From Candidatus Latescibacterota bacterium (GTDB lineage: Bacteria > Latescibacterota > UBA2968 > GCA-2709665), in the NCBI GenBank assembly GCA_965219995.1, contig CBDCOX010000002.1, positions 736,001 to 800,000 of the forward strand: a DNA stretch of 64,000 nt, in the 5' to 3' direction. Positions 22,620 through 34,352 of this stretch are shown here, piece by piece. The first letter of the stretch is position 1, and each line of letters starts with the position of its first letter. The notes beneath the pieces were generated by a model. That model made no database searches. It saw only the letters and a list, made by a program, of their open reading frames with translations, and was not told the origin of the DNA. A program made the position numbers and the translations under genes.

Positions 22620-23321
22620 ATGACTATACTCTGTTTATTGCTGCTTGCGCTCGCCATGATCGTTCTTCCGCCGTTCCGTCTCCGGGCGCGCGGCCACAAT
22701 GGCGGCGGGCGGGAGCCGGCGCTGGAGATACGTTTGAGACCGTGGATCGGCGTCGCCGGTTTCCGGCTTTTCTACGCTGACGGCGGCTGGCGCGCCGGCG
22801 CGCTTCTGGGCTGGTGGGCCGTGGGGGCATCGCCGTTGACGAAGGAAGAGGGTCGAAAGAAGAAACGAAGCGGCGGGGAACGCATCGGAAAGGAGCCGGC
22901 CGATCCGGACGGCTTCCCGGCAATGGTCGAACGGCTGGCGAGGGCCGGCGTCCATATCAAGAGACAGTGGGCGCCCCTGCGGCGTTCCGCGTTCCGTTTC
23001 CTGAACGGCTTTCGTCTTCGCAGCATCAAATGCAAGGTGACGTTCGGAGCATCCGATCCGGCCATCACGGGGCAGGTTTTCGGATATAGCATGGCTGCCA
23101 CGTCCCTGATCGGGATCAGGGCATTCGTAGACGTAACGCCCGATTTCACGAGACAGCGTCTGGATGGGGATGCTGAACTGGAAATCTGGATATATCCCCA
23201 CCGGTTATTATGGGCGTTCGCCTGGTTCGGGTGGCGCGTGGGGCTTACATGGATATCGGAACGACGAAGACGGGAACGCCATGTCCAGGGCGTCGTAAGT
23301 GGTGGCGCGACGAGTTGTTAA
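22620..23321 (+). CDS. DUF2953 (YtfI-like) membrane-anchored protein
   Basis: N-terminal TM, FGASDPAITG...G, VTPDF. Directly upstream of a YtfJ homologue. Confidence 0.7.
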   Translation: MTILCLLLLALAMIVLPPFRLRARGHNGGGREPALEIRLRPWIGVAGFRLFYADGGWRAGALLGWWAVGASPLTKEEGRKKKRSGGERIGKEPADPDGFPAMVERLARAGVHIKRQWAPLRRSAFRFLNGFRLRSIKCKVTFGASDPAITGQVFGYSMAATSLIGIRAFVDVTPDFTRQRLDGDAELEIWIYPHRLLWAFAWFGWRVGLTWISERRRRERHVQGVVSGGATSC

Positions 23322-23330
23322 GGAGGAATC

Positions 23331-23729
23331 ATGTCTGTCGAGGATCTCATCAAAACGGTAATGACGGAATTCCGGCAAATCGTGAAAGCGGAGACGGTCG
23401 TGGGTGAGCCGATCGACGTGGAAGGCACGGTTGTGGTACCTGTCTCCAGGATTTCGTTCGGCTTCGGCGCGGGCGGGGGTTCGGACAAGTCGGACGGTGG
23501 CGGGAGCGGCACCGGAGGCGGGGCATCCGTCGAACCCCTGGCATTTGTCGTCATTCGAGACGGAAAAGCCCAGATCCTGCCCGTTCAGGAGAAAGAGGGC
23601 TCCATAAAGGGGCTACTGGATCTGGCGCCGGACATTCTGTCGAAGGTAAGAGGGTTCAAGGAGAAGAGAGAACGCAGGAAAGCCGAAACCGACGCCGAGA
23701 CGGATTCCAACGACGATGTGAGCGCATAG
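23331..23729 (+). CDS. ytfJ: GerW/YtfJ family protein
   Basis: TVVGEPI, VVPVSRISFGFGAGGG, GGGASVEPLAFVV. Confidence 0.88.
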   Translation: MSVEDLIKTVMTEFRQIVKAETVVGEPIDVEGTVVVPVSRISFGFGAGGGSDKSDGGGSGTGGGASVEPLAFVVIRDGKAQILPVQEKEGSIKGLLDLAPDILSKVRGFKEKRERRKAETDAETDSNDDVSA

Positions 23730-23741
23730 TCCGGGGCAGCC

Positions 23742-24971
23742 ATGGTCCGGCTTCTGCTCCTCCTTCCGACAACGACCTATCGCACGCACGACTTCATGGC
23801 GGCGGCTGATGCGCTCGAGGTCGCCGTGGTCGTGGGCTCAGAACGCCGGCAGGCGCTTGCCGCTGAGACACCCGGGAGCACGCTGGTACTGGATTTCGCA
23901 AGGCCGGCCGCGTCGGTCGACAGGATTGTCGCCTTTGACAGGGAATACCCGGTCCGGACGGTGGTCGGGGTAGACGACGAGACCGTCGTGCTCGCCGCGA
24001 TGGCCTGCAGGGCGCTCGGACTTCCGCACAACTCGGTGGCGTCCGTCCGTGCATCCCGATACAAACACATCATGCGCCGCATGCTTGCGGAAAAAGGCCT
24101 GCCCTCGCCCGGGTTCAGGCTTTTTTCGTGTTCGGAAAGTCCGGAAGCCGCCGCCGCGACGGCCGACTACCCGTGCGTACTGAAACCCGTGTTTCTTTCT
24201 GCCAGCCGGGGTGTGGTCCGCGCGGATGACGAGGCGGAATTCGTGGCGGCGTTCCGCCGTATTGCAAAAATGATTTCGGGGTCTGCGCACGACACGGCGG
24301 AAGGCGGAGATTGTATTCTCGCGGAAGACTACATTCCCGGCCGGGAGGTGGCGCTGGAAGGATTGCTGGTCGAGGGAGAGTTGCAGACCCTGGCGCTGTT
24401 CGACAAGCCGGATCCCCTGCGCGGTCCGTATTTCGCCGAGACGCTGTATATCACGCCCTCGCGGCTGGCCGAATGTATCCAGGCGCAGATACGTGAAACC
24501 ACGCAGCAGGCCGCACGGGCTCTAGGGCTGAGCGTAGGGCCCGTGCACGCGGAACTTCGCCTGAACCGACGCGGTATCTACGTGGTGGAAATCGCCGCGC
24601 GGTCCATCGGCGGGCTGTGTTCGCGCGTCTTGTGCTTTGACGCCGGCGCCTCGCTCGAGGAGCTGATTCTGCGCCAGGCGAGCGGGTTGCCTCCCGGCGA
24701 CTTGCGGATGGAAGACGGCGCGGGCGGCGTAATGATGCTGCCGGTGCCGAAACGGGGCGTTCTGAGGTACGTGCGGGGCACGGCAGCGTCACGGCGCGTG
24801 CCCGGTATCAGCGACGTCGCGGTCACGGTTCCTTTGGGTCGGCGTGTACTGCCGCTGCCCGAGGGAGACCGTTACCTGGGGTTCATCTTCGCACGCGCGA
24901 AGACGCCCGCGGCCGTGGAAGCGGCGCTCAGGGAGGCCGGGGGTCTGCTCGATATCGGGATTGAGGCGTAG
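23742..24971 (+). CDS. ATP-grasp domain protein
   Basis: YPCVLKP..SASRGV, EDYIPGRE, HAELR, EIAARSIGG. Confidence 0.9.
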   Translation: MVRLLLLLPTTTYRTHDFMAAADALEVAVVVGSERRQALAAETPGSTLVLDFARPAASVDRIVAFDREYPVRTVVGVDDETVVLAAMACRALGLPHNSVASVRASRYKHIMRRMLAEKGLPSPGFRLFSCSESPEAAAATADYPCVLKPVFLSASRGVVRADDEAEFVAAFRRIAKMISGSAHDTAEGGDCILAEDYIPGREVALEGLLVEGELQTLALFDKPDPLRGPYFAETLYITPSRLAECIQAQIRETTQQAARALGLSVGPVHAELRLNRRGIYVVEIAARSIGGLCSRVLCFDAGASLEELILRQASGLPPGDLRMEDGAGGVMMLPVPKRGVLRYVRGTAASRRVPGISDVAVTVPLGRRVLPLPEGDRYLGFIFARAKTPAAVEAALREAGGLLDIGIEA

Positions 24972-25021
24972 AAAGTCCGCAAACCGGCTGTCGCTCGGGT
25001 TTTCCTCTGCGGTGCCTCGGA

Positions 25022-26449
25022 TTACACAAGAGCAAACTGCTCTTCGGTGGGCTCCGCTCAGCAGTACCAGGGTTCGGTGAGGCGGGGAACGGGCCGGAGG
25101 GGCGGGTCGAGATCCGGAATTCGAACGGAAGTCGGTCGATCCAGCCGCGTGTCGACAGTCGAGCGGATCCGGTGAAAGATCCGGCGCCGGGTGGCGTCCC
25201 GATTCTGGAGCCGCGTGACCAACAGGGTGAGTTCGCGCTGAAGCCGGTCCAGACGGGCATCGGGATGGGTCCACGGGTACGTCAGGTCTTCGTCTGAAAA
25301 CGGCCCGACCAGGCCCCGGACGCGGGCGAGTTCCAGCAGTCTCGATCCTCGGGGAATGAGAAGCCGGATGGTCAGCTGCACCGGGGATACGTTTTCAATC
25401 AGGTCCAGTTCGGCGAGGGTATCAAGGAAACCGGCGTACTGATCCGCGGTGGTCCAGGGTGTGAAGGGGATGAACGTGGGGTTCAAGATCAGGCCGTACC
25501 GGCGGAAGAGTCGTACGACCCGGATGAAGTCGTCGGCCGTATGGCCCTTGTCCATCAGCGTGAGGACGCCGTCGTCGAGTGACTCCACGGCGGTCGTAAC
25601 AATGGCGCACCCGGTATCCCGCAGTACTGGAAGAAAACGGCGGTATTTCAGGAGGTGTTCGATCTTGACGGTAATATCGTACGTCAACTCGGGAAATCTC
25701 GCGTGGAGTTTCTGAATCAGGGGTACCGCGTGTCCGATTCCGTTGAAAAAGTCGGGATCGCCGAACGTGATGTGTGTAGCCCCGGCGTCAACCTGTTTCG
25801 CGACGTCGTCCAGTACGACGTCCGCCTGCACGATGCGGAATCTGCCGTTGTATACGGGAACCACCGGGCAATGGCGGCAAAGGTGCTTGCAGCCCCGGCT
25901 GGCCTCCGTATATCCCACGGTCTTTTCCTGTCCGGCGCCCGTGGAGAGCCGTGCGTATTTTGAAAGGTCCGGCAGACCCTTTCGGTCGGGCGGAAGAAAC
26001 TGCTGTCTGCCCAGGAAAACAACGGGTTCGGACCGGCGGTGCGGGTTCTCCGGGTTCCCCCTCAGCCTGTTGCAGAGACGGAGCAGGCCCGTTTCGAATT
26101 CCCCGCCGAGGACCGTCTGCGCGCCCAGACCGCGCAGGTATGATTCATTGACCGGCGCGTACAGACCGTAGAAGCACAGGTGGGCGCTGGCGTTCAGGCC
26201 ACGTACCTTCCCCACCAGGGGTACGGCCAGCCGCGTGGCGGTATGCATCGGGACGTAGAACGCCACCAGGTCGGCGGAACGCACGGCCTCGTGCGGAAAA
26301 CCGTCGATCGAGACGTCCGCGAGAACGACGTCCATTCCATGTGCCCGCAACCATGCGGCCGGCGATGCCAGACCGAATGGCTGACGCCCGAGTTCGTATG
26401 TCGAAACGAGTACGATCCGAAACGGAGATGTCCGGACTGTTGTTTGCAT
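25022..26449 (-). CDS. B12-binding radical SAM selenoprotein, CUAEP-tail family (Sec at TGA 25058-25060)
   Basis: CKHLCRHC motif and N-terminal B12-binding-like domain. C-terminus reads EPWYC-TGA-AEPTEEQFALV-TAA. Confidence 0.88.
25025..25049 (-). promoter_or_regulatory. Putative bacterial SECIS hairpin
   Basis: CAC-CG-AAGAGCA-GUU-UGCUCUU-GUG, with the loop G 21 nt after the UGA. Confidence 0.7.
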
Positions 26450-26529: not shown

Positions 26530-27114
26530 TTATTTTGAGGACTGGTAGTACGGGTTTTCGCCGTCCGCGTGCTCGGTAATGTCGAGAATCTCGTCAATTT
26601 CGGGCACGGCCTCCTTAATCAGCACCTCGACACCCTGCTTGAGTGTCACATCGACCATGCCGCAGCCCTGGCATCCGCCCCCGAACTGAATGTATGCTTT
26701 GTTGTCCTTCACGTCCACCAGAGAGATGTTGCCGCCGTGCATCGCGACGCTGGGATTGATTTTCTCGTCGATGATGTTCTGGATCTTCTCCGCGGCGGTT
26801 CCCTTAAGGTGCGGCGGCACCTTGTTGGGATTCTCGATTTTGAAGCCGCGTCCCATCAGGCTGTCCACAAAGTCCAGCGTGATGTCCTGTGCGTACGGGG
26901 CGCTTTCCGGGTCGACGTAGATATTGAATCCGTCGAATGGCGTGACCTCGTCCGCCTCCTCTTCCTGTCCGTGGGCAACAAACGCGAGGCGGTAGTTGGC
27001 CTGCAGCGGCGACACCGCTTCCGCCTTGACACGAACGCCAACGATGGCCGATTCCTGGTTCCGAATCAGGTTGACGACCTCCTTCTGCGCGGCTTCTGTA
27101 ACCGTGATGTTCAT
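26530..27114 (-). CDS. nfuA: Fe/S biogenesis protein NfuA
   Basis: Degenerate A-type carrier N-domain (GFKIENPN) plus NifU C-domain GGCQGC and DITEH. Confidence 0.9.
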   Translation of the reverse strand: MNITVTEAAQKEVVNLIRNQESAIVGVRVKAEAVSPLQANYRLAFVAHGQEEEADEVTPFDGFNIYVDPESAPYAQDITLDFVDSLMGRGFKIENPNKVPPHLKGTAAEKIQNIIDEKINPSVAMHGGNISLVDVKDNKAYIQFGGGCQGCGMVDVTLKQGVEVLIKEAVPEIDEILDITEHADGENPYYQSSK

Positions 27115-27154
27115 ATCGGCCCTCCCCTCAGAGAGATGTGCGTTGCCAGGGTGG

Positions 27155-27649
27155 TCAGGATTCCAATGCCACTGTTGGCTTCGCAGGATGTTCCCGGTCG
27201 ATTTTTTCCTGGATCTTCATCAGCGCGGACAGCAGATCCTCGGGGCGGGGCGGACAGCCGGGCACATAGATATCCACCGGCAGGAACTGATCGACGCCCT
27301 GCACCAGGGTATACGTATTGAATACGCCCCCTGACGATGCACATGCGCCCATCGAAATCACCCATTTCGGATCCGGCATCTGATCGTAGATTTTCTTGAG
27401 TACCGGCATCATCTTGATCGAAATCCGTCCGGATACAATGAGCAGATCGGACTGACGGGGCGAAAACCGAACCGCTTCGGCGCCGAACCGGGCCATGTCG
27501 AAGCGCCCCGAGAGCGTGGCCATCATTTCGATGGCGCAGCAGGCCGTGCCGAACGGCATCGGCCAGAGGGATGACTTGCGCGCCCAGTTTATCATCTTGG
27601 ACAGTGTGGTCGTGATAACATTGTCCCCGAGTCCCGTCTCAAGTCCCAT
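27155..27649 (-). CDS. nuoB: NADH-quinone oxidoreductase subunit B, orphan paralogue
   Basis: [31 protein letters not shown]. Confidence 0.93.
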
Positions 27650-27753
27650 CGATCACCTCTGGCAGAATGGATGGATTCGTTACTTTTGGTTACCTTCGGC
27701 GGCATTTCGCCGCCGGCAATCCGTCCGCCTGGCCCAAAAAACCGGGCAGGCTG

Positions 27754-28233
27754 TCAGTCCGTTACCTGAATCAGTTCCTTTGTCACGTGCTGCAGACACG
27801 CATCCGTGGCCTGCTCGTCTCCCAGCAGGTCATTCAGGGTAACGCGGCTCAGCAGCTGATCGATCACGGACTGTACGGAGGTCCAGAGCGACCGGATCGA
27901 ACAGTCGACGGAGTGCGTGCACAATGCTTCTTGGCCGGCGTGTTCGTCGCAGAATTCCGGACTGAAGAGGCGACCGCCGAGCGCCGCCAGTACATCGCCA
28001 ACCACAACCAGGTCGGCCGGCTGCGCGAGTACGTACCCTCCCGACTGACCTCGAACGCTCTCCACGAATCCCCCGAGGCGCAGGAGGCGCATCAGCTTTG
28101 CGACATTGGGGACGGAAAGTCCCTCAATCTGGCTGATCTCCGAAATGGAGAGGCCGCCGCCGGTTTCTCTCTGCCGCCGGCCGATCTGAAGCAGGCACCG
28201 AAGCCCGTATTCTTCCCCAGCGCTCAATTTCAT
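27754..28233 (-). CDS. Rrf2 family transcriptional regulator (Fe-S sensing)
   Basis: wHTH with SVRGQSGGY and a CX9CX5C Cys triad. Confidence 0.9.
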   Translation of the reverse strand: MKLSAGEEYGLRCLLQIGRRQRETGGGLSISEISQIEGLSVPNVAKLMRLLRLGGFVESVRGQSGGYVLAQPADLVVVGDVLAALGGRLFSPEFCDEHAGQEALCTHSVDCSIRSLWTSVQSVIDQLLSRVTLNDLLGDEQATDACLQHVTKELIQVTD

Positions 28234-28376
28234 GGCGCTATCGAATTCCTCTGTACGGGTTGGAGGTCTGGATCATTCCATCCGCCCGGTCAACGGTCGC
28301 ACGAATTTCCCAACGCCGCGTGTCCGGAATCCGTACTCCCGGCGGACGCCTGTTACCGCCGGACGCTGAAACACGG

Positions 28377-28880
28377 CTATAGCAGTCCCAGTTCGAGCCT
28401 TGCGGCTTCGGACATCATCTCCGGGTTCCAAGGCGGGTCGAAGGTCAGGTCCAGGTTGACGTCCCGGACGCCGTCGACCGATCGGGTGGCGCTTTCTACC
28501 TGTCCGGGAAGGATTCCCGCGGCCGGACAGGCGGGGGAGGTGAGGGTCATGCGGACGTACGTCATCCCGGAGGGTTCGACCTTGATGTCGTAAATGAGGC
28601 CGATGTCGTAGATGTTGACAGGAATCTCCGGGTCGAATACCGTACGATGGGCGGCGATGATGTTCTCCCTTACGGCCTCGGTGTCTACCGGGCCGTCGGA
28701 TTCGGCCGTATCGGCCGTTGCCTGCCGTTCTTCCGCGCGTCCGGCGGCGTGCGCTTCCAGGGCGCTTGTGTCGACGGGAGTCGCATTGTCTTTCGCGCCT
28801 GCGTCCGGTACGCCTTCTCGAGCCGCATCCTCGTCTTCCCTGTCGTTACTGTACAGACGGTTCAGCAATCGGTCGAGCAA
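28377..28880 (-). CDS. sufT: SUF system protein SufT (DUF59)
   Basis: DPEIPVNIYDIGLIY, TLTSPACP, FDPPW. Confidence 0.88.
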   Translation of the reverse strand: MLDRLLNRLYSNDREDEDAAREGVPDAGAKDNATPVDTSALEAHAAGRAEERQATADTAESDGPVDTEAVRENIIAAHRTVFDPEIPVNIYDIGLIYDIKVEPSGMTYVRMTLTSPACPAAGILPGQVESATRSVDGVRDVNLDLTFDPPWNPEMMSEAARLELGLL

Positions 28881-28903
28881 AGCGAATTCCTCCTCATCTT
28901 CGA

Positions 28904-29356
28904 CTACTCGGTGGTTACCGGCCGGCTGCTGTTTTCAAGCGCGGCCAGAAGGGTGTGCCAGGCGAGGGTTGCGCATTTGATGCGCACGGGAAATTCGCGC
29001 ACCCCGGTAAAGACGGCCAGTTTCCCGATACCGTCCGTATCGGGCGGGGACGAAACATCGCTGGTCACCAGGTCGTGGAACTTGCCGAAGAGCGACTCCG
29101 CTTCCCGCAGTGTCCGGCCCTTGACCGCGTCGGTCATCAGGGAAGCCGACGCCTTCGAAATGGCGCATCCGGCGCCCTGAAAGGCGATATCCGCGATCCG
29201 GTCGCCCTCGAATTTGACATAGACGTTCAGGTGATCGCCGCACAGCGGATTGTGACCTTCGGATTCCCTGTCCGGATCGACCATGACCCGGAAGTTCCGC
29301 GGACTCTTGTTATGGTCCAGGATGACCTGCTGGTAGAGTTCCCGTAGGTCGGACAT
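28904..29356 (-). CDS. sufU: SUF system NifU-like protein SufU
   Basis: NPLCGD, GCAISKAS, RIKCATLAW. Confidence 0.93.
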   Translation of the reverse strand: MSDLRELYQQVILDHNKSPRNFRVMVDPDRESEGHNPLCGDHLNVYVKFEGDRIADIAFQGAGCAISKASASLMTDAVKGRTLREAESLFGKFHDLVTSDVSSPPDTDGIGKLAVFTGVREFPVRIKCATLAWHTLLAALENSSRPVTTE

Positions 29357-30636
29357 CAGCGGAATACCTCACTGGCCGTATGCAGGGCACTTACAAGCGT
29401 GTCGATGTCTTCGCGCGTATTGTAGAACGCGGTGGCCGCCCGCGTCGTTGCGGGGATGTTGAAATGGCGCATGACGGGCTGGGCGCAGTGGTGTCCGGCG
29501 CGGACCGCCACGCCCTGCTGGTCTACGATGGTGCCGACGTCGTGCGGGTGGAGGCCATCCATTACAAAGGAAATGACGCTGACCTTCTCTTCCGCCGTGC
29601 CGATGATACTCAGATCGGCAATCTCGGAAAGGGCGTCCGTAGCGTAGGCGAGCAGGTCGTTCTCGTATGCGGCGGCGGCTTCCAGGTCGACACGGTTCAG
29701 GTAGTCGATGGCGGCGCCCAGGCCGATACAACCGGCAATATGGGGCGTGCCCGCCTCGAAGCGGGCTGGAGGATCGGCATAGGTGGTCTTGTCGAATGAA
29801 ACCTCGCGAATCATCCCGCCGCCGCCCCGGTAGGGCGGCATCGAGTCCAGCAGTTCGCTTCTTCCGTACAGGACTCCGATGCCGGTCGGCCCGTAGAGCT
29901 TGTGCCCCGAAAATGCGTAAAAATCGCATCCCAGCTCCTGAACGTCCACCTTGAAGTGGGGGACCGCCTGGGCTCCGTCCAGCAGAACGGGGATTCCCCG
30001 TTCTCGTGCGAGCTCTACGATGGCGGAGACGGGATTGCGGGTGCCGAGGACGTTCGACACGTGAACGACAGCGACGAGCTTCGTGCGCTCGTTCAGCCGC
30101 CGTTCGTACTCTTCAATCAGCAACTCTCCCCGCTCGTTCATGGGAATCACGCGCATTCTTGCGCCTTTTTCCTCGCAGAGCATCTGCCACGGCACGATAT
30201 TCGAGTGGTGCTCCATGGCGGACACGAGAATTTCGTCTCCCGAATCCACGTGCTTGCGTCCGAACGTCTGCGCGACCAGATTGATGCTGTCCGTCGTACC
30301 GCCGGTGAATACGATTTCCCGGTCGTGGGCCGCGTTCAGAAACTGACGGACCTTGCCTCGCGCGCCCTCGTAGGAATCCGTTGCAACCTGGCTGAGATGA
30401 TGGACCCCGCGATGCACGTTGGCATTTGCCGCTTCGTAGAAGACTTCGAGGACGTCGAGTACATCCCTGGGCTTCTGGGTTGTCGCGGCATTGTCAAGGT
30501 AGACCAGCGGTTTACCCCGTACGGATTGACCCAGAACCGGAAAATCCCGACGGATACGGTAGGGATCGAATGGCCCCGCACGCTCGACGAGCGGGCATGA
30601 GAGCCTTTCGGCGAGGGCATGTGCGGACGGGCTCAT
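29356..30636 (-). CDS. sufS: Cysteine desulfurase SufS
   Basis: YLDNAATTQKP, FSGHK, RAGHHCAQP. ATG overlaps the sufD stop. Confidence 0.95.
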   Translation of the reverse strand: MSPSAHALAERLSCPLVERAGPFDPYRIRRDFPVLGQSVRGKPLVYLDNAATTQKPRDVLDVLEVFYEAANANVHRGVHHLSQVATDSYEGARGKVRQFLNAAHDREIVFTGGTTDSINLVAQTFGRKHVDSGDEILVSAMEHHSNIVPWQMLCEEKGARMRVIPMNERGELLIEEYERRLNERTKLVAVVHVSNVLGTRNPVSAIVELARERGIPVLLDGAQAVPHFKVDVQELGCDFYAFSGHKLYGPTGIGVLYGRSELLDSMPPYRGGGGMIREVSFDKTTYADPPARFEAGTPHIAGCIGLGAAIDYLNRVDLEAAAAYENDLLAYATDALSEIADLSIIGTAEEKVSVISFVMDGLHPHDVGTIVDQQGVAVRAGHHCAQPVMRHFNIPATTRAATAFYNTREDIDTLVSALHTASEVFR

Positions 30637-31958
30637 GGCAGATTCCCGGTGTCTCGCGCCCGTTCGAATTTTTCCATGACAATCCGTTCCAGATAGCTTC
30701 GAACGGGTTCGGGCTTGACTCTGTTCAGGATGTCGATCGCGAATGCGTGCACCAGAATACGCTGTGCCGTGCCATAATTCAACCCGCGCGAGCGCAGGTA
30801 GAAGACCGCGTTCCGGTCGAGCTGTCCGATGGTCGCACCGTGTGAGCACTTGACCTGATCGGCGTAGATTTCGAGTTGAGGCTTGGTGTTGATGTCCGCA
30901 TCGTCGGAGATGAGCAGGCTCTGGTTGCTCTGGTAGGCGTCGGTCTCCTGCGCTTTCCGGTGAACGTGAATCTTGCCGCGGAACACGCCGCTGGACCGGC
31001 CGCCGAGGATTCCCTTGTATAGTTCGTGGCTGTTGCAACTCGGTTCGGCGTGTTCGATCAGGGTATGATTGTCGATATGCTGCTCGCTGTCGGTCAGATA
31101 GAATCCGTTGACCGTGGCTTCACCGGCTTCACCGGCCAGCAGCGCGTTGACTTCGTTACGCACCAGTTTGCCGCCGAGAGAAATGGCGTGCGTTGAGAGG
31201 TCGCTCCGCGCGCCCTGCCGGCATTGCATGGTGGCGATATGAAACGCCTCCGGGCTCTCAAGTTCCAGCTTGTAGTGGTCCACCACGGCACTGTCGCCTG
31301 CGATGACTTCCGAAACGGCGTTGGTGAAATAGGCGCCGCCGCCGGTATAGGTTTCGACAATCGTGGCCTGGCTGTTTTCTTCGGCCAGGACCAGCATGCG
31401 GGGGTGCGAGATGGAAGCCGCGTCTGAAACCGATGAAACGAAAATCACGTGAATGGGCGCTTCCACGGCGGTGCCCCGAGGGATGTAAATAAAGGCGCCG
31501 TCCTGAAGGAATGCGGTATTGAGGGCGACGAAAGGACGCTCTTCGAAGGCGGCGTGCCGCGCGATATGGTCTTCAACCCATTCGGGTTCGGTTGCCAATA
31601 GCTCCGCAAGGCTACCGGCGCGTACGCCGTCGGGAAGATCTCCCGTCCGTGAGTTTTCGGCGCTGAAGAAGCCGTTGATGAAAACCAGGCGCGACGTCGC
31701 CAGATCCTCGATGGCGTCTTCCGTTTTCCAGACCCGATGTGCATCGGCGCCCGTCGACGTGCGAAACGAAGTGCGGACGAGCGATGCGACATTCGTGTGA
31801 AACCAGGCTTCGTCTCTCGTGCCCGGAAACCCGAGTTCCTCGAATCGTCTGATTGCCGACCTGCGAAGTTCGTTCAGGGGTGCCGCGGATCGGCCGTTCA
31901 GGCTCTCTTCAAGTGTGGCGAATGCCGTCAGGTAGGCGTGCATGCCCGTGTTGACCAT
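30633..31958 (-). CDS. sufD: Fe-S assembly protein SufD
   Basis: KPQLEIYADQVKCSHGAT, FYLRSRG. Confidence 0.95.
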   Translation of the reverse strand: MVNTGMHAYLTAFATLEESLNGRSAAPLNELRRSAIRRFEELGFPGTRDEAWFHTNVASLVRTSFRTSTGADAHRVWKTEDAIEDLATSRLVFINGFFSAENSRTGDLPDGVRAGSLAELLATEPEWVEDHIARHAAFEERPFVALNTAFLQDGAFIYIPRGTAVEAPIHVIFVSSVSDAASISHPRMLVLAEENSQATIVETYTGGGAYFTNAVSEVIAGDSAVVDHYKLELESPEAFHIATMQCRQGARSDLSTHAISLGGKLVRNEVNALLAGEAGEATVNGFYLTDSEQHIDNHTLIEHAEPSCNSHELYKGILGGRSSGVFRGKIHVHRKAQETDAYQSNQSLLISDDADINTKPQLEIYADQVKCSHGATIGQLDRNAVFYLRSRGLNYGTAQRILVHAFAIDILNRVKPEPVRSYLERIVMEKFERARDTGNLP

Positions 31959-31974
31959 GGTGCGGCTTCCTCCC

Positions 31975-32748
31975 TTAATCATCGGCGAGTCGGACCGTCG
32001 ATTCCTCGCGAATCCAATCGTAGCCTTCGGCTTCCAGCTTCTGAGAGAGTTCCTTGCCGCCCGATTTGACGATTCGGCCGTTCAGAAGTACATGCACGAA
32101 GTCGGGTACGATGTAGTTCAGTAGCCGCTGATAGTGGGTGACCACCAGGACCGCGCCTTCAGGGGTCTTGCGGTGAAGCGTATTCACGCCGTTGGCCACG
32201 ATTTTCAGCGCGTCGATGTCAAGCCCGGAATCCGTTTCGTCCATAATGGCCAGCCTGGGTTCGAGCATTGCCATCTGAAAAATCTCGTTGCGTTTCTTCT
32301 CGCCCCCGGAGAATCCCTCGTTGACCGACCGGTTGAGAAAGGACTCGTCCATTTCCACCAGCTTGAGCTTCTCCCTGGAGAGCGCAAGGAAATCCATCGC
32401 GTCGAATTCGTCCTGGCCCCGTGCCTTGCGGAGTTCGTTGAGTGCCGTCCTGAGAAAATAGGCGCTGTTTACGCCGGGAATTTCCACAGGATATTGAAAG
32501 GCCATGAAGATGCCGGCCTGGGCGCGTTCTTCCGGATCCAGTTCCAGCAGGTCTACCCCCTCGTATTGTACCGAGCCGCGGGTCACCTCGTACTCTTCCC
32601 GTCCGGCCAGTACCTGGGCAAGGGTGCTCTTGCCGGATCCGTTGGGACCCATAATGGCGTGAATTTCGCCTGCGTTGACTCTCAGGTTGATACCGGAAAG
32701 GATGCGGGCGCCTTCGACGCTTGCGTGCAGGTCGTTGATTTCCAGCAT
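31975..32748 (-). CDS. sufC: Fe-S assembly ATPase SufC
   Basis: [31 protein letters not shown]. Confidence 0.97.
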
Positions 32749-32873
32749 TCGTGTTCCTCTTTGAAAACTGTCGATGGTACGGGGGTGAAGTCCGGATTAA
32801 CGGGTCGTTTACGCGGGCCTCCAGGGAAGCCGTCGATGCGTTTGAGGGTTCTCCGTTCGTCGCCGGATGTGCA

Positions 32874-34352
32874 CTATCCGACGCTGCCTTCCAGGCTGAT
32901 GCCAAGCAGCTTCTGCGCTTCAACGGCGAATTCCATGGGGAGTTCTGCCAGCACCTCCTTGCAGAAGCCGTTGACGATCATGGAGACGGCGTCTTCGGTG
33001 GAAATACCACGCTGGTTGCAGTAGAAAATCTGATCTTCGCCGATCTTCGAGGTGGAGGCTTCGTGCTCTACCTGCGAGGTGGTGTTCCTTACGTCGATGT
33101 AAGGGAAGGTGTGCGCCCCGCATTGGTCGCCGATGAGCATCGAGTCGCATTGCGTGAAGTTTCGGGCGTTTGCCGCGCCCTTCAGAACCTGGACCCGTCC
33201 CCTGTAGGTGTTCTGACCGTTCTTCGCGGAAATGCCCTTCGATACGATGGTGCTGCGCGTGTTCCTGCCAAGGTGAATCATCTTGGTGCCCGTATCGGCC
33301 TGCTGGCGCCCGCTGGTAACGGCCACGGAATAGAATTCTCCGATGGAGTTGTCGCCCTGGAGGATGCAACTGGGATATTTCCAGGTGATGGCCGACCCGG
33401 TTTCCACCTGTGTCCAGGAAATCTTGGCATTCGCGCCGCGGCAGGCGCCGCGTTTGGTCACGAAATTGTAGATGCCGCCGACGCCGTTTTCGTCACCGGG
33501 ATACCAGTTCTGAACGGTTGAGTATTTGATCTGCGCGTCGTCCAGGGCAACCAGTTCCACAACGGCCGCGTGGAGCTGATTCTCGTCTCTCTGCGGGGCG
33601 GTGCAACCTTCGAGATAGGATACGTAGGCTCCTTCTTCGGCAACGATGAGCGTCCGTTCGAACTGGCCCGTATTGGCGGCGTTGATGCGGAAGTACGTCG
33701 ACAGCTCCATCGGACACCGCACGCCCCGGGGGATGTAGCAGAAAGAGCCGTCGGTAAAGACGGCGGAGTTCAGCGCGGCGAAGTAATTGTCGTTGTACGG
33801 CACGACGGAACCGAGATACTTCCTCACCAGTTCGGGGTGTTCGTGCACCGCTTCCGAAAACGAACAGAAGATGACTCCCAGTTCGGAAAGCTTGTCCTTG
33901 AATGTGGTGGCCACGGAAACGCTGTCGAAAACGGCGTCGACCGCCACGCCAGCCAGTATCTTCTGCTCCTCGAGGGGGATGCCCAGTTTTTCGTAGGTCC
34001 GGAGGATTTCAGGGTCTACCTCTTCCAGGCTCTGCAGCGTTTCCGCCTTCTTCGGCGCCGAGTAATAGATGATTTTCTGGTAGTCGATATCAGGATAATC
34101 GACCATCGCCCAATGCCGGCTACGCTTGCGACGGGTCGGATCTTCCATCTTGAGCCAGTTGTGATAGGCTTTAAGCCGCCATTGCAACAACCAGTCGGGT
34201 TCGCTCTTCTTCATGGAAATGAAGGCGATGATATCCTCGCTCAGACCCGGGGGCGCCGCGTCCTGCTCGATGTCCGTTACGAAGCCGTATTTATACTCTC
34301 TGGTTGCCAGTTCTTCGAGTTCCTGCACTTCGTCACTTACGATTTCGCTCAT
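32874..34352 (-). CDS. sufB: Fe-S assembly protein SufB
   Basis: [37 protein letters not shown]. Confidence 0.97.

What the first reader, a model, noticed from the sequence alone, without database searches (positions are those of the whole stretch)
25022..26449. Hidden selenoprotein: radical SAM enzyme reads through UGA into a C-U-A-E-P tail with a SECIS hairpin
Seen: the ORF track stops at ...RLTEPWYC, but after TGA (25058-25060) the frame continues AEPTEEQFALV-TAA. A hairpin CAC-CG-AAGAGCA-GUU-UGCUCUU-GUG follows, with its loop G 21 nt after the UGA. Known: bacterial SECIS elements sit just 3' of the UGA with a G early in the apical loop, and a CUAEP/CCAEP-tail radical SAM family exists, with no function known to me. 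Inference: this is a cobalamin-dependent radical SAM enzyme with a vicinal Cys-Sec tail, perhaps for metal(loid) or methyl handling.
Basis: partly seen in the sequence, partly recalled or inferred. Interest (0 to 1): 0.85.

Follow-up and report, generated by a model that had tools for sequence, protein, structure and literature searches.

The report
Known selenoprotein radical SAM, ligase-partnered
This gene is a genuine selenocysteine-containing radical SAM enzyme of an already catalogued but uncharacterised family; it is related to the arsenic-carbon bond-forming enzyme ArsL and is nearly always found together with an amino-acid ligase gene.

Summary
The minus-strand gene 26449..25022 reads ...EPWYC-UGA-AEPTEEQFALV-TAA, and a hairpin follows the UGA.

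This is a full-length member of NCBIfam NF040546, 'CUAEP/CCAEP-tail radical SAM (seleno)protein' (611 bits, cut-off 500). The selenoprotein itself is therefore already known.

Evidence that the UGA is read as Sec:
- The genome has selA, selB, tRNA-Sec and a UGA-containing selD.
- 33 of 33 copies in the phylum and 68 of 80 loci from other phyla have TGA at this codon. The other 12 have TGC or TGT.
- All of them keep the (A/V)EP tail, with third-position codon variation.
- The hairpin is kept with compensatory changes in Sec forms. The 12 Cys forms show no hairpin beyond what their peptide sequence gives.

'Cobalamin-dependent' is not supported. The closest sequence relative (ArsL, 32% identity) and the closest fold (AprD4) are both reported not to bind cobalamin.

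Beyond the finding:
- An L-amino-acid-ligase-type ATP-grasp gene (23742..24971) co-occurs exactly with the enzyme (33 and 33 of 168 genomes, the same genomes).
- It lies in the flanks held in 44 of 81 loci.
- No arsenic genes recur nearby.

My inferred mechanism is ArsL-like transfer of a 3-amino-3-carboxypropyl radical to an atom held by the Cys-Sec tail, followed by ligation of the product. This part is untested.

The parts
25022..26449 (-). Full coding sequence of the CUAEP-tail radical SAM selenoprotein: 475 residues including U464, with stop TAA at 25024..25022.
   Evidence: Translation. NF040546 scores 611.1 bits (cut-off 500) over profile positions 1-467 of 468. The genome search gives 604.5 bits with 1 in-frame TGA.
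25058..25060 (-). UGA codon 464, read as selenocysteine, directly after Cys463.
   Evidence: TGA at this aligned codon in 33 of 33 phylum copies and 68 of 80 loci from other phyla; TGC or TGT in the other 12. The Sec/Cys label needs at least 8 changes on a tree of 66 rows.
25025..25049 (-). SECIS-type hairpin inside the last 9 codons: lower stem CAC/GUG, upper stem AAGAGCA/UGCUCUU, apical loop GUU with G at 25037.
   Evidence: The helix is 85.6% paired across 82 distinct Sec-form sequences, against 42.7-57.3% for slid controls. The loop G and U columns are invariant. Synonymous-recoding control.
25022..25057 (-). Post-UGA tail AEPTEEQFALV plus stop.
   Evidence: In 82 sequences the first and second positions of the A-E-P codons are invariant and the third positions vary. 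The same tail follows Cys-Cys in Cys forms.
25868..25891 (-). Radical SAM cluster motif C187-x3-C191-x2-C194 (CKHLCRHC).
   Evidence: Invariant in 76 family members. Pfam Radical_SAM scores 48.9 bits.
25607..25609 (-). Cys281, a family-specific invariant cysteine (Leu in ArsL).
   Evidence: Invariant in alignment A3. It aligns to Leu in Pseudomonas amygdali ArsL. Its role is inferred only.
23742..24971 (+). Convergent partner gene: L-amino-acid-ligase-type ATP-grasp enzyme (409 aa).
   Evidence: Pfam ATP-grasp_4, LAL_C2 and ATPgrasp_N. Best solved relative is L-amino acid ligase BL00235, 3vot, E 2.8e-35. Co-occurs with the rSAM in exactly the same 26 of 61 and 33 of 168 genomes. Present in the flanks held (up to 8 kb a side) in 44 of 81 loci.
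26530..27114 (-). NfuA-like Fe-S carrier gene directly upstream on the same strand. It is context, not a specific partner.
   Evidence: TIGR03341 164.3 bits (below cut-off 269.35), with Pfam NifU and Fe-S_biosyn. Present in 58 of 61 relatives whether or not they have the rSAM.

Best explanation
Shown: the gene encodes a 475-residue radical SAM enzyme of the curated family NF040546. UGA464 is decoded as selenocysteine by the genome's SelA/SelB/tRNA-Sec/SelD system. Decoding is directed by a hairpin that lies within the last codons of the same reading frame, giving a C-terminal ...W-Y-Cys-Sec-A-E-P-T-E-E-Q-F-A-L-V tail.

Shown: the enzyme forms a two-gene unit with an L-amino-acid-ligase-type ATP-grasp enzyme.

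Inferred: like its nearest characterised relative ArsL, the enzyme uses its CX3CX2C [4Fe-4S] cluster to cleave SAM at the C(gamma)-S bond. This would give methylthioadenosine and a 3-amino-3-carboxypropyl (ACP) radical. The flexible Cys-Sec tail, perhaps with the family-specific Cys281, would hold the acceptor atom, a soft chalcogen or metalloid rather than arsenic in a resistance setting. The radical would form a C-X bond to that atom.

Inferred: the resulting methionine- or glutamate-like amino acid is then taken by the ATP-grasp ligase and joined to another amino acid. No cobalamin is involved.

My odds: real selenoprotein of this family about 0.97. Functional coupling with the ligase about 0.85. 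ACP-radical chemistry about 0.5. The tail as acceptor-holding site plus ligation of the product about 0.35.
For: Identity:
- NF040546 611 bits against cut-off 500, full length.
- CX3CX2C and the EPWYC motif are invariant.

Sec decoding:
- selA 558.9 bits, selB 366.8 bits, tRNA-Sec 73.4 bits with anticodon tca, and selD 359.9 bits with its own in-frame TGA.
- TGA in 26 of 26 and 33 of 33 related copies and in 68 of 80 loci from other phyla. A Cys codon is found in the remaining 12.
- 87 of 120 database homologues end at EPWYC and 33 continue with CC[A/S]EP.
- A codon-periodic conservation pattern follows the TGA.

Hairpin:
- 85.6% of cells paired against 42.7-57.3% when slid. Pairs 23:39 (AU 39, GC 25, CG 5) and 24:38 (GC 41, AU 27) change on both sides.
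- Sec forms beat synonymous recodings (median fraction reaching the real stem 0.023; 45 of 79 at or below 0.05). The 12 Cys forms do not (median 0.39).
- The selD hairpin of the same genome has a G-U-containing loop at a similar distance from UGA.

ArsL link:
- The ArsL model is the second-best hit (299.9 bits over residues 12-405; the next family scores 35.8 bits).
- 32% identity to P. amygdali ArsL, with many shared polar invariant residues. The ArsL CC of CCLKC aligns with Cys-Sec.
- ArsL makes MTA plus an ACP radical, and its Cys tail binds As(III).

Ligase link:
- Identical presence and absence in 61 and 168 genomes.
- 44 of 81 loci hold it in their flanks. In 34 it is downstream on the same strand, often within 35 nt of the post-tail stop.
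- 11 of 15 genomes without it nearby have a strong copy elsewhere.
- The nearest solved relative, BL00235, makes Met-Gly and Met-Met.
Against: - No experiment exists for any member of this family. The only text found that names it calls it uncharacterised.
- The ArsL model score is below its cut-off (299.9 against 450), the RCCLKC tail is absent, and no ars genes recur nearby. The acceptor is therefore unknown.
- The best structural match, AprD4, is a conventional 5'-deoxyadenosyl-radical enzyme. However, identity is only 17-19%.
- I could not obtain model coordinates, so I could not test whether the tail reaches the cluster.
- Hairpin statistics are mixed. The window's fold z-score is only -1.54. 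Two covariation measures (pairs with a change on both sides; further pair types) do not exceed shuffles. A slide of -2 gives a similar covariation score (0.313 against 0.321). By my strict contiguous-stem measure, 9 of 79 Sec forms have stems of 3 bp or fewer because of an internal mismatch or a shifted register.
- 3 of 15 genomes with the rSAM showed no ligase and 1 showed only a weak one. Their completeness is unknown.
- In the window the two genes are convergent, not co-transcribed.
- Related genomes are not independent samples.
Confidence: 0.45

Rival explanations
1. The gene is the same selenoprotein, but the vicinal Cys-Sec tail is a redox or hydrogen-atom shuttle. This would resemble the C-terminal Gly-Cys-Sec-Gly of mammalian thioredoxin reductase or the C-terminal Cys pair of ribonucleotide reductases (recalled knowledge). 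In this reading the tail quenches a product radical or delivers reducing equivalents into the active site. SAM cleavage could be conventional (5'-deoxyadenosyl radical) or ACP-type. The substrate would be a free small molecule whose product the ligase then uses.
For: - The Cys-Sec pair sits on a C-terminal extension after a low-confidence linker (pLDDT 57 for residues 441-450), which fits a mobile arm.
- Repeated Sec/Cys exchange (at least 8 changes) is typical of redox-active Sec sites.
- Recurring neighbours are Fe-S and oxidative-stress genes (suf, NfuA-like, YggX, AcnA, zwf) rather than metalloid genes.
- The best fold match, AprD4, uses conventional chemistry.
Against: In the nearest characterised homologue, the equivalent vicinal Cys pair is a substrate (As) ligand. 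It is not needed for SAM cleavage. No thioredoxin-like partner recurs in the neighbourhood.
Confidence: 0.3
2. One reading: a cobalamin-dependent (class B) radical SAM enzyme, for example a methyltransferase, whose Cys-Sec tail handles a metal(loid) or methyl group.
For: - The N-terminal Rossmann-like domain (strands and helices over residues 11-129) is distantly related to B12-binding domains.
- Many homologues carry a precomputed PF02310 hit.
- Foldseek hits include the cobalamin enzymes OxsB, TsrM, MgmA, CysS and TokK.
Against: - The Pfam B12-binding score here is 16.3 bits, below the cut-off of 32.1.
- All class-B NCBIfam models score 36 bits or less, against 300 for ArsL.
- AprD4 (top fold hit) and ArsL homologues are stated not to bind cobalamin.
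- ArsL is active without cobalamin.
Confidence: 0.07
3. The UGA is a plain stop, a sequencing error or a decaying Cys codon. The tail would not be translated, and the hairpin would be a terminator or a chance structure.
For: Gene callers stop at WYC: 87 of 120 database entries end there. The window's hairpin alone is not statistically striking. No Rfam family matches it.
Against: - TGA is at the same codon in 33 of 33 and 68 of 80 independent assemblies across phyla.
- The downstream A-E-P codons vary only at third positions.
- The same tail is found in Cys-Cys forms.
- The hairpin is kept by compensatory changes only where TGA is present.
- A complete Sec machinery is present.
- The next gene often starts within 35 nt of the post-tail stop.
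Confidence: 0.02

Closest known systems
NCBIfam NF040546, CUAEP/CCAEP-tail radical SAM (seleno)protein
   Same: Full-length match above the equivalog cut-off. Same CX3CX2C motif, same EPWYC-U/C-AEP tail and same Sec/Cys alternation.
   Different: Nothing differs structurally. The family has no assigned function. The one preprint that mentions it calls its structure and function 'not well known'. The ligase partnership and the ArsL-based mechanism are additions made here.
ArsL (NF040542, RCCLKC-tail radical SAM; arsinothricin biosynthesis)
   Same: Closest characterised relative: 299.9 bits over residues 12-405, 32% identity. It has the same N-terminal Rossmann-like domain, radical SAM core and C-terminal tail with a vicinal Cys pair. 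ArsL cleaves SAM to MTA plus an ACP radical, and its tail binds the acceptor As(III).
   Different: - The score is below ArsL's cut-off of 450.
- The tail is C-U-A-E-P, not R-C-C-L-K-C. There are two chalcogen ligands rather than three Cys.
- There is an extra helical segment of about 45 residues before the tail.
- Cys281 is invariant here and is Leu in ArsL.
- ArsL sits in an ars operon with arsQ, arsM and arsN1. This family does not. It pairs with an ATP-grasp ligase instead.
AprD4 (PDB 6fd2), radical SAM 1,2-diol dehydratase
   Same: Best structural match to the AlphaFold model (E 7.6e-20, TM 0.69-0.72). The two-domain architecture is shared, and the Rossmann-like domain is reported not to bind cobalamin.
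   Different: Only 17-19% identity. AprD4 has no Cys-Sec tail and acts on an aminoglycoside with conventional 5'-deoxyadenosyl chemistry.
L-amino acid ligases BL00235 (3vot) and BacD (for the partner gene)
   Same: The partner has the ATP-grasp_4, LAL_C2 and ATPgrasp_N domains. It matches BL00235 at E 2.8e-35 and BacD at 1.5e-13. BL00235 ligates methionine at the N-terminal position, giving Met-Gly and Met-Met.
   Different: No NCBIfam model reaches its cut-off for the partner. Its substrates are unknown. As far as I recall, the known ligases of this type serve dipeptide antimetabolite pathways, whereas this one is bound to a selenoprotein radical SAM enzyme.
C-terminal Cys-Sec redox tails (mammalian thioredoxin reductase, recalled) and other CU-motif selenoproteins listed by Haft 2022
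   Same: A vicinal Cys-Sec on a C-terminal arm. Haft notes that the CU dipeptide is rare and, in HgcA and SAO proteins, suggestive of heavy-metal interaction.
   Different: There is no sequence relationship. Here the arm belongs to a radical SAM enzyme, and the SECIS lies in the last codons of the frame.

Membership tests
NF040546 CUAEP/CCAEP-tail radical SAM (seleno)protein | Whole-protein HMM score above the curated cut-off (500 bits), full length | tested here: met
   611.1 bits, profile positions 1-467 of 468. 604.5 bits in the genome search.
NF040546 CUAEP/CCAEP-tail radical SAM (seleno)protein | C-terminal Cys-(Sec/Cys)-Ala-Glu-Pro tail | tested here: met
   EPWYC-UGA-AEPTEEQFALV. The same tail is in all 26 relatives and in 80 of 80 loci, one of them with VEP.
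NF040546 CUAEP/CCAEP-tail radical SAM (seleno)protein | Radical SAM CX3CX2C cluster motif | tested here: met
   C187, C191 and C194 are invariant. Pfam PF04055 scores 48.9 bits.
Bacterial selenoprotein (SelB/SECIS-dependent) | In-frame UGA aligned with Cys in homologues | tested here: met
   68 TGA, 9 TGC and 3 TGT at the same codon in 80 loci. At least 8 Sec/Cys changes on the tree.
Bacterial selenoprotein (SelB/SECIS-dependent) | Stem-loop just 3' of UGA with conserved apical-loop G/U, kept by compensatory changes | tested here: met
   The stem starts 13 nt after UGA and the loop G lies at +21. 85.6% paired against at most 57.3% when slid. Loop G and U are invariant. It exceeds synonymous recodings in Sec forms only. 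Caveats: the single-sequence z-score is weak, there are two stem registers, and no Rfam model matches.
Bacterial selenoprotein (SelB/SECIS-dependent) | selA, selB, selC (tRNA-Sec) and selD in the genome | tested here: met
   All four score above their cut-offs. selA, selB and tRNA-Sec are clustered at C2:1802582-1806100.
Bacterial selenoprotein (SelB/SECIS-dependent) | Selenium actually incorporated in the protein | not testable with these tools
   This needs 75Se labelling or mass spectrometry of the C-terminal peptide.
ArsL (NF040542) | HMM score above cut-off (450 bits) | tested here: not met
   299.9 bits.
ArsL (NF040542) | RCCLKC tail with three As(III)-binding cysteines | tested here: not met
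   The tail is YC-U-AEP. Only the vicinal pair aligns.
ArsL (NF040542) | ars operon context (arsM, arsQ, arsN1) | tested here: not met
   None of the recurring neighbour clusters that I annotated, including all those found in at least 4 of the 81 loci, is arsenic-related. Compare the ArsL operon.
ArsL (NF040542) | SAM cleaved to MTA plus a 3-amino-3-carboxypropyl radical | not testable with these tools
   This is a biochemical assay. It is inferred here only from homology.
Cobalamin-dependent (class B) radical SAM | Recognisable B12-binding domain and cobalamin binding | tested here: inconclusive
   PF02310 scores 16.3 bits, below the cut-off of 32.1. The fold is Rossmann-like. The closest relatives, AprD4 and ArsL, are stated not to bind cobalamin. 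Binding itself cannot be tested here.
L-amino acid ligase (ATP-grasp), for the partner gene 23742..24971 | ATP-grasp_4, LAL_C2 and ATPgrasp_N domains above Pfam cut-offs | tested here: met
   111.2, 51.2 and 47.7 bits. Match to 3vot at E 2.8e-35.

The most novel reading that the evidence does not exclude
The Sec-tailed radical SAM enzyme and its obligate L-amino-acid-ligase partner form a widespread, unrecognised two-gene pathway. It is seen here in Latescibacterota/Gemmatimonadota-labelled, Acidobacteriota, Chloroflexota, Methylomirabilota and Actinomycetota genomes. In this reading an ArsL-type 3-amino-3-carboxypropyl radical is joined to a non-arsenic heteroatom presented by the Cys-Sec tail, for example selenium, sulfur or another soft element. 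The new amino acid is then built into a dipeptide. The repeated placement beside Fe-S assembly and oxidative-stress genes (suf, NfuA-like, YggX, AcnA, zwf) would point to a physiological small molecule rather than an antibiotic. [quoted passage not shown]
Probability: 0.3. Interest if true: 0.7.

Novelty: already known. Interest (0 to 1): 0.3.

Why it matters
The selenoprotein itself adds nothing new. NCBI's NF040546 already names the family as a (seleno)protein, and close relatives are annotated with that name.

The value lies in what the comparison adds to an uncharacterised and very common family. More than 8000 clusters at 90% identity reached E <= 1e-20, where the search hit its scoring limit.

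1. Its nearest characterised relative is now known to perform unusual ACP-radical chemistry, with the C-terminal Cys tail holding the substrate.
2. It is coupled tightly to one L-amino-acid-ligase-type gene.
3. It lacks any arsenic context.

Together these make the family's function directly testable with a simple assay: MTA against 5'-deoxyadenosine, the element bound to the tail, and the ligase product.

The locus is also a clear example of a SECIS hairpin that constrains the peptide it encodes. The tail switches between EEQxA(L/P) and (G/R)DQL(V/A)P so that the stem stays paired.

For annotation, ORF callers truncate this protein at Cys463 and lose the catalytic Sec.

Tried and rejected
- **Rfam scan of 24950-25150 at E <= 10.** It gave only a chance hit (D12-methyl, 13.7 bits) and no SECIS family. 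Bacterial SECIS elements are poorly modelled, so I do not count this against the hairpin.
- **Sequence search of the PDB with the enzyme.** It found only weak Elp3 matches (E 0.002). No ArsL-like structure was found by sequence.
- **A second stem register** (columns 22-28 with 33-39). It fits only part of the family (60.5% paired). The GD..VP class uses a 4-nt loop, so one fixed-column structure understates pairing.
- **NfuA-like neighbour as a specific partner.** Rejected, because it is present in 58 of 61 relatives regardless of the rSAM.
- **Neighbour cluster c9** (about 150 aa, 8 loci). It looks like a spurious opposite-strand ORF (odd low-complexity, His-rich sequence). It occupies the slot where YggX (c3) lies in other loci. 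I did not check the overlap directly.
- **Cluster c14.** In the window its ORF (26569-27321, + strand) overlaps the NfuA-like gene (26530-27114, - strand) on the opposite strand.
- **The long SufS ORF (560 aa).** It matched an encapsulin-cargo desulfurase model below its cut-off (666 against 800 bits), and only over the desulfurase part. The ORF start overlaps sufD, so I did not pursue encapsulins.
- **Arsenic context.** None was found among recurring neighbours.
- **DUF169 literature.** There were only passing mentions: a selenium co-occurrence list and a Nitrospina HgcA neighbourhood. This is not enough to build on.
The ArsL alignments and family lists (Figures S3, S7 and S9 of the two ArsL preprints) were not seen. 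They may bear on which residues are conserved in ArsL.
- **What I read of each paper.**
  - 10.1101/2024.02.01.577332: whole text.
  - 10.64898/2026.04.29.721666: passages.
  - 10.1101/2022.07.06.499078: one passage.
  - PMC12931638: two passages.
  - PMC6920838: passages.
  - PMC5322559 and 10.1101/648329: one passage each.
- **'Not in print'.** The statement that no function is in print rests on the full-text searches for 'CUAEP' and 'CCAEP' in that library only.
- **Recalled, not from any call.**
  - Thioredoxin reductase and ribonucleotide reductase tails.
  - The natural roles of the known L-amino acid ligases.
  - The E. coli SECIS rules.
  - AprD4's conventional chemistry and aminoglycoside substrate.
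Full report
**What is in the sequence.**
On the minus strand an ORF starts at ATG 26449 and runs to TGA at 25060..25058. It ends ...RLTEPWYC. The frame then continues GCG GAG CCC ACC GAA GAG CAG TTT GCT CTT GTG, which reads AEPTEEQFALV, to TAA at 25024..25022.

It consists of CAC/GUG (25049-25047 with 25027-25025) around AAGAGCA-GUU-UGCUCUU (25044-25028). The loop G at 25037 lies 21 nt after the UGA. RNAfold places this stem-loop in the minimum-energy structure.

Taken alone this is weak. An 11-codon open stretch is unremarkable. The 71-nt fold has z = -1.54, and 17 of 200 shuffles fold as well.

**What it is.**
The read-through product matches NCBIfam NF040546, 'CUAEP/CCAEP-tail radical SAM (seleno)protein'. 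The score is 611.1 bits against a cut-off of 500, over profile positions 1-467 of 468. Pfam finds Radical_SAM at 48.9 bits and only a sub-threshold B12-binding hit, 16.3 bits against 32.1.

The family is thus already curated as a selenoprotein. Full-text searches for 'CUAEP' and 'CCAEP' found one relevant text, a 2022 preprint. It lists the family among the few CU-motif selenoproteins and says its structure and function are not well known.

**Is the UGA read as selenocysteine?**
The genome holds the full machinery:
- selA at 558.9 bits
- selB at 366.8 bits
- tRNA-Sec directly beside them, at 73.4 bits in Rfam. ARAGORN calls it tRNA-SeC with anticodon tca.
- selD at 359.9 bits, itself interrupted by one TGA

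Among the 120 best database homologues, 87 end exactly at EPWYC and 33 continue with CC[A/S]EP.

Reading the DNA gives the following:
- All 26 copies found in 61 related genomes have one in-frame TGA. All 33 copies found in 168 genomes of the phylum do as well. The model matches right through it in every case.
- The 26 I inspected all read C-U-AEP(T/S/P)...
- Of 80 loci from named genomes of other phyla, 68 have TGA at this codon, 9 have TGC and 3 have TGT. These phyla include Acidobacteriota, Chloroflexota, Methylomirabilota, Actinomycetota and Calditrichia.
- In all 80 the next codons read AEP, or VEP once.

In 82 distinct Sec-form sequences, the first two positions of the A, E and P codons are invariant while the third positions vary. 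This is the signature of translation beyond the UGA.

On a FastTree of 66 of the 81 proteins, the Sec/Cys label needs at least 8 changes. Fifteen rows were dropped by my own filter. Six of the changes are forced by well-supported branches.

**The hairpin.**
Across the 82 sequences, the helix at columns 23-28 with 34-39 is 85.6% paired. When the 3' arm is slid, pairing falls to 42.7-57.3%. Two pairs switch between AU and GC on both sides: 23:39 (AU 39, GC 25, CG 5) and 24:38 (GC 41, AU 27). The loop G and U columns are invariant.

Not every measure is significant:
- The number of pairs with double changes, and the number of extra pair types, do not beat shuffles.
- A slide of -2 gives a similar covariation score (0.313 against 0.321).
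- Part of the family uses a register shifted by one base, with a 4-nt loop.

A better control keeps the peptide and redraws synonymous codons. The window's 7-bp stem was reached in 0 of 300 recodings (mean 3.7 bp). For 79 distinct Sec forms, the median fraction of recodings reaching the real stem is 0.023, and 45 of 79 are at or below 0.05. For the 12 Cys forms the median is 0.39. Nine Sec forms score 3 bp or fewer on my strict contiguous measure, which I attribute to an internal mismatch or the shifted register in those sequences.

The tail peptide co-varies with the stem: EEQxA(L/P) against (G/R)DQL(V/A)P. The RNA structure therefore shapes the peptide it encodes. The selD gene of the same genome has a hairpin with loop GGUC at a similar distance from its UGA. 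Rfam has no matching family.

**Relatives with known function.**
[quoted passage not shown] It scores 299.9 bits over residues 12-405, below its cut-off of 450. Every other model scores 36 bits or less.

A tblastn search of plasmids found 37 records. One is a Thermomicrobium roseum CUAEP-family member at 41% identity. All but one of the 29 other listed hits are annotated as RCCLKC-tail or ArsL genes, at 31-33% identity.

Aligned with Pseudomonas amygdali ArsL, the window's protein is 32% identical. Many polar residues are shared. The CC of ArsL's CCLKC falls on Cys463-Sec464. Cys281, invariant in this family, is Leu in ArsL.

ArsL has been shown to cleave SAM to methylthioadenosine and a 3-amino-3-carboxypropyl radical, despite its canonical CX3CX2C motif. 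Its C-terminal cysteines bind the acceptor As(III). They are needed for product formation but not for SAM cleavage.

The AlphaFold model is confident (pLDDT 91.7, pTM 0.91). It shows an N-terminal Rossmann-like domain, a radical SAM barrel and a helical C-terminal part. A low-confidence linker lies at residues 441-450, before the tail. Its best solved match is AprD4, followed by OxsB, TsrM, MgmA, CysS, TokK and MiaB. A 2026 review states that AprD4 and ArsL homologues do not bind cobalamin and have only a remotely Rossmann-like domain.

**Neighbourhood.**
In the window the gene is the last of a same-strand array: sufB, sufC, sufD, sufS, sufU, a SufT-like gene, a lone NuoB-like gene and an NfuA-like gene. 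It faces a convergent ATP-grasp gene at 23742..24971.

I clustered the ORFs of 81 loci, each with up to 8 kb of flank on each side (less on short contigs). The ATP-grasp gene is by far the commonest neighbour, present in 44 of 81:
- 34 times downstream on the same strand, often within 35 nt of the stop that follows the tail
- 6 times convergent
- 4 times upstream

Other recurring neighbours:

| Neighbour | Loci |
|---|---|
| Aconitase AcnA | 25, in the Acidobacteriota-type arrangement |
| YggX (Fe2+ trafficking) | 18, plus 8 more if cluster c9 is its shadow |
| Glucokinase | 13 |
| NfuA-like | about 13 |
| DUF169, with four conserved Cys | 10 |
| zwf | 10 |

None of the recurring clusters that I annotated is arsenic-related.

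The ATP-grasp protein carries the L-amino-acid-ligase domains. Its best solved relative is BL00235 (3vot, E 2.8e-35), which makes Met-Gly and Met-Met.

**Co-occurrence.**
- In 61 related genomes the rSAM is in 26 and the ligase is in the same 26. In three of these the two genes lie far apart or on different contigs.
- In 168 genomes of the phylum each is in 33, again the same genomes, spread over 12 of 49 genera.
- As a control, the NfuA-like neighbour is in 58 of 61.
- Of 15 genomes from other phyla whose rSAM locus lacks the ligase, 11 have a strong copy elsewhere (at least 484 bits). One has only a weak match (144 bits) and three have none. Their completeness is unknown.

Related genomes are not independent, so these figures show a consistent pattern. 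They are not a formal statistical test.

**How it most likely works.**

Shown:
- A Sec-containing radical SAM enzyme with a C-terminal Cys-Sec arm.
- A SECIS hairpin in its last codons.
- A dedicated ligase partner.

Inferred from ArsL:
- Reductive cleavage of SAM to an ACP radical.
- Capture of that radical by an atom held on the Cys-Sec arm, perhaps with Cys281.
- Release of a methionine- or glutamate-like amino acid that the ligase couples to a second amino acid.

The acceptor is unknown. The missing third tail cysteine, the selenium and the absence of ars genes argue against arsenite in a resistance setting.

The main rival keeps the protein but makes the arm a redox or hydrogen-atom shuttle. 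Repeated Sec/Cys exchange and the Fe-S and oxidative-stress neighbourhood fit that reading equally well.

**Verdict.**
The selenoprotein interpretation is right, but it is already known at family level. The cobalamin claim is unsupported.

The useful additions are the ArsL-based mechanistic lead and the near-obligate ligase partner. Both are computational and both can be tested directly.

Noticed in passing
window 26530-34352, minus strand: A same-strand array leads directly into the rSAM gene: sufB (32874-34352), sufC (31975-32748), sufD (30633-31982), sufS (about 29356-30600), sufU (28904-29356), SufT-like (28377-28880), a stand-alone NuoB-like gene (27155-27649) and NfuA-like (26530-27114). 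A lone NuoB homologue inside an Fe-S assembly cluster is unusual. It recurs in 5 related loci (cluster c15).
   Followed up: partly
own genome G000 C2:2652925-2653848 (locus L014): selD is itself a UGA selenoprotein (..ARTCG-U-AAKV..). Its hairpin has loop GGUC about 21-24 nt after the UGA. selA, selB and tRNA-Sec are clustered at C2:1802582-1806100.
   Followed up: partly
alignment A2 (loci L026-L131), columns 19-42: In Sec forms the tail peptide switches between EEQ(F/V/L)A(L/P) and (G/R)DQL(V/A)P in step with the stem sequence. The SECIS hairpin therefore constrains the amino acids it encodes. Acidobacteriota forms carry a longer tail ending ..(A/T/Q)F(V/I).
   Followed up: partly
L059, L062, L067, L110, L111, L114, L117 and L126 directly after the rSAM; L058 and L086 within about 3 kb: A DUF169 (PF02596) protein of about 237 aa with four conserved cysteines lies between or beside the rSAM and the ATP-grasp gene in 10 loci of several phyla. 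It may be a third member of the module in those lineages. The literature gives only passing mentions of DUF169, beside HgcA-like genes and in a selenium co-occurrence list.
   Followed up: partly
L132 (Thermomicrobium roseum DSM 5159 megaplasmid NC_011961.1, 796591-798027): A distant family member (41% identity) is annotated as ending at ..TESWFC. The frame continues AEPLEDPSGP.. after the stop, so this copy too may be a truncated selenoprotein annotation. Its neighbours are a PLP aminotransferase, an MFS transporter and a large GNAT acetyltransferase, with no ATP-grasp gene within 7 kb.
   Followed up: no
window 22620-23729, plus strand: A DUF2953 protein and a YtfJ/GerW-family 'sporulation' protein lie side by side. 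The closest named relatives of this genome are Latescibacterota and Gemmatimonadota-labelled MAGs, which are not known spore formers. The pair recurs in related loci (cluster c18).
   Followed up: no
window 27667-28593, plus strand: A 308-aa ORF has no Pfam or NCBIfam match. It partly overlaps the SufT-like gene on the opposite strand. I could not tell whether it is a real gene or a shadow ORF.
   Followed up: no
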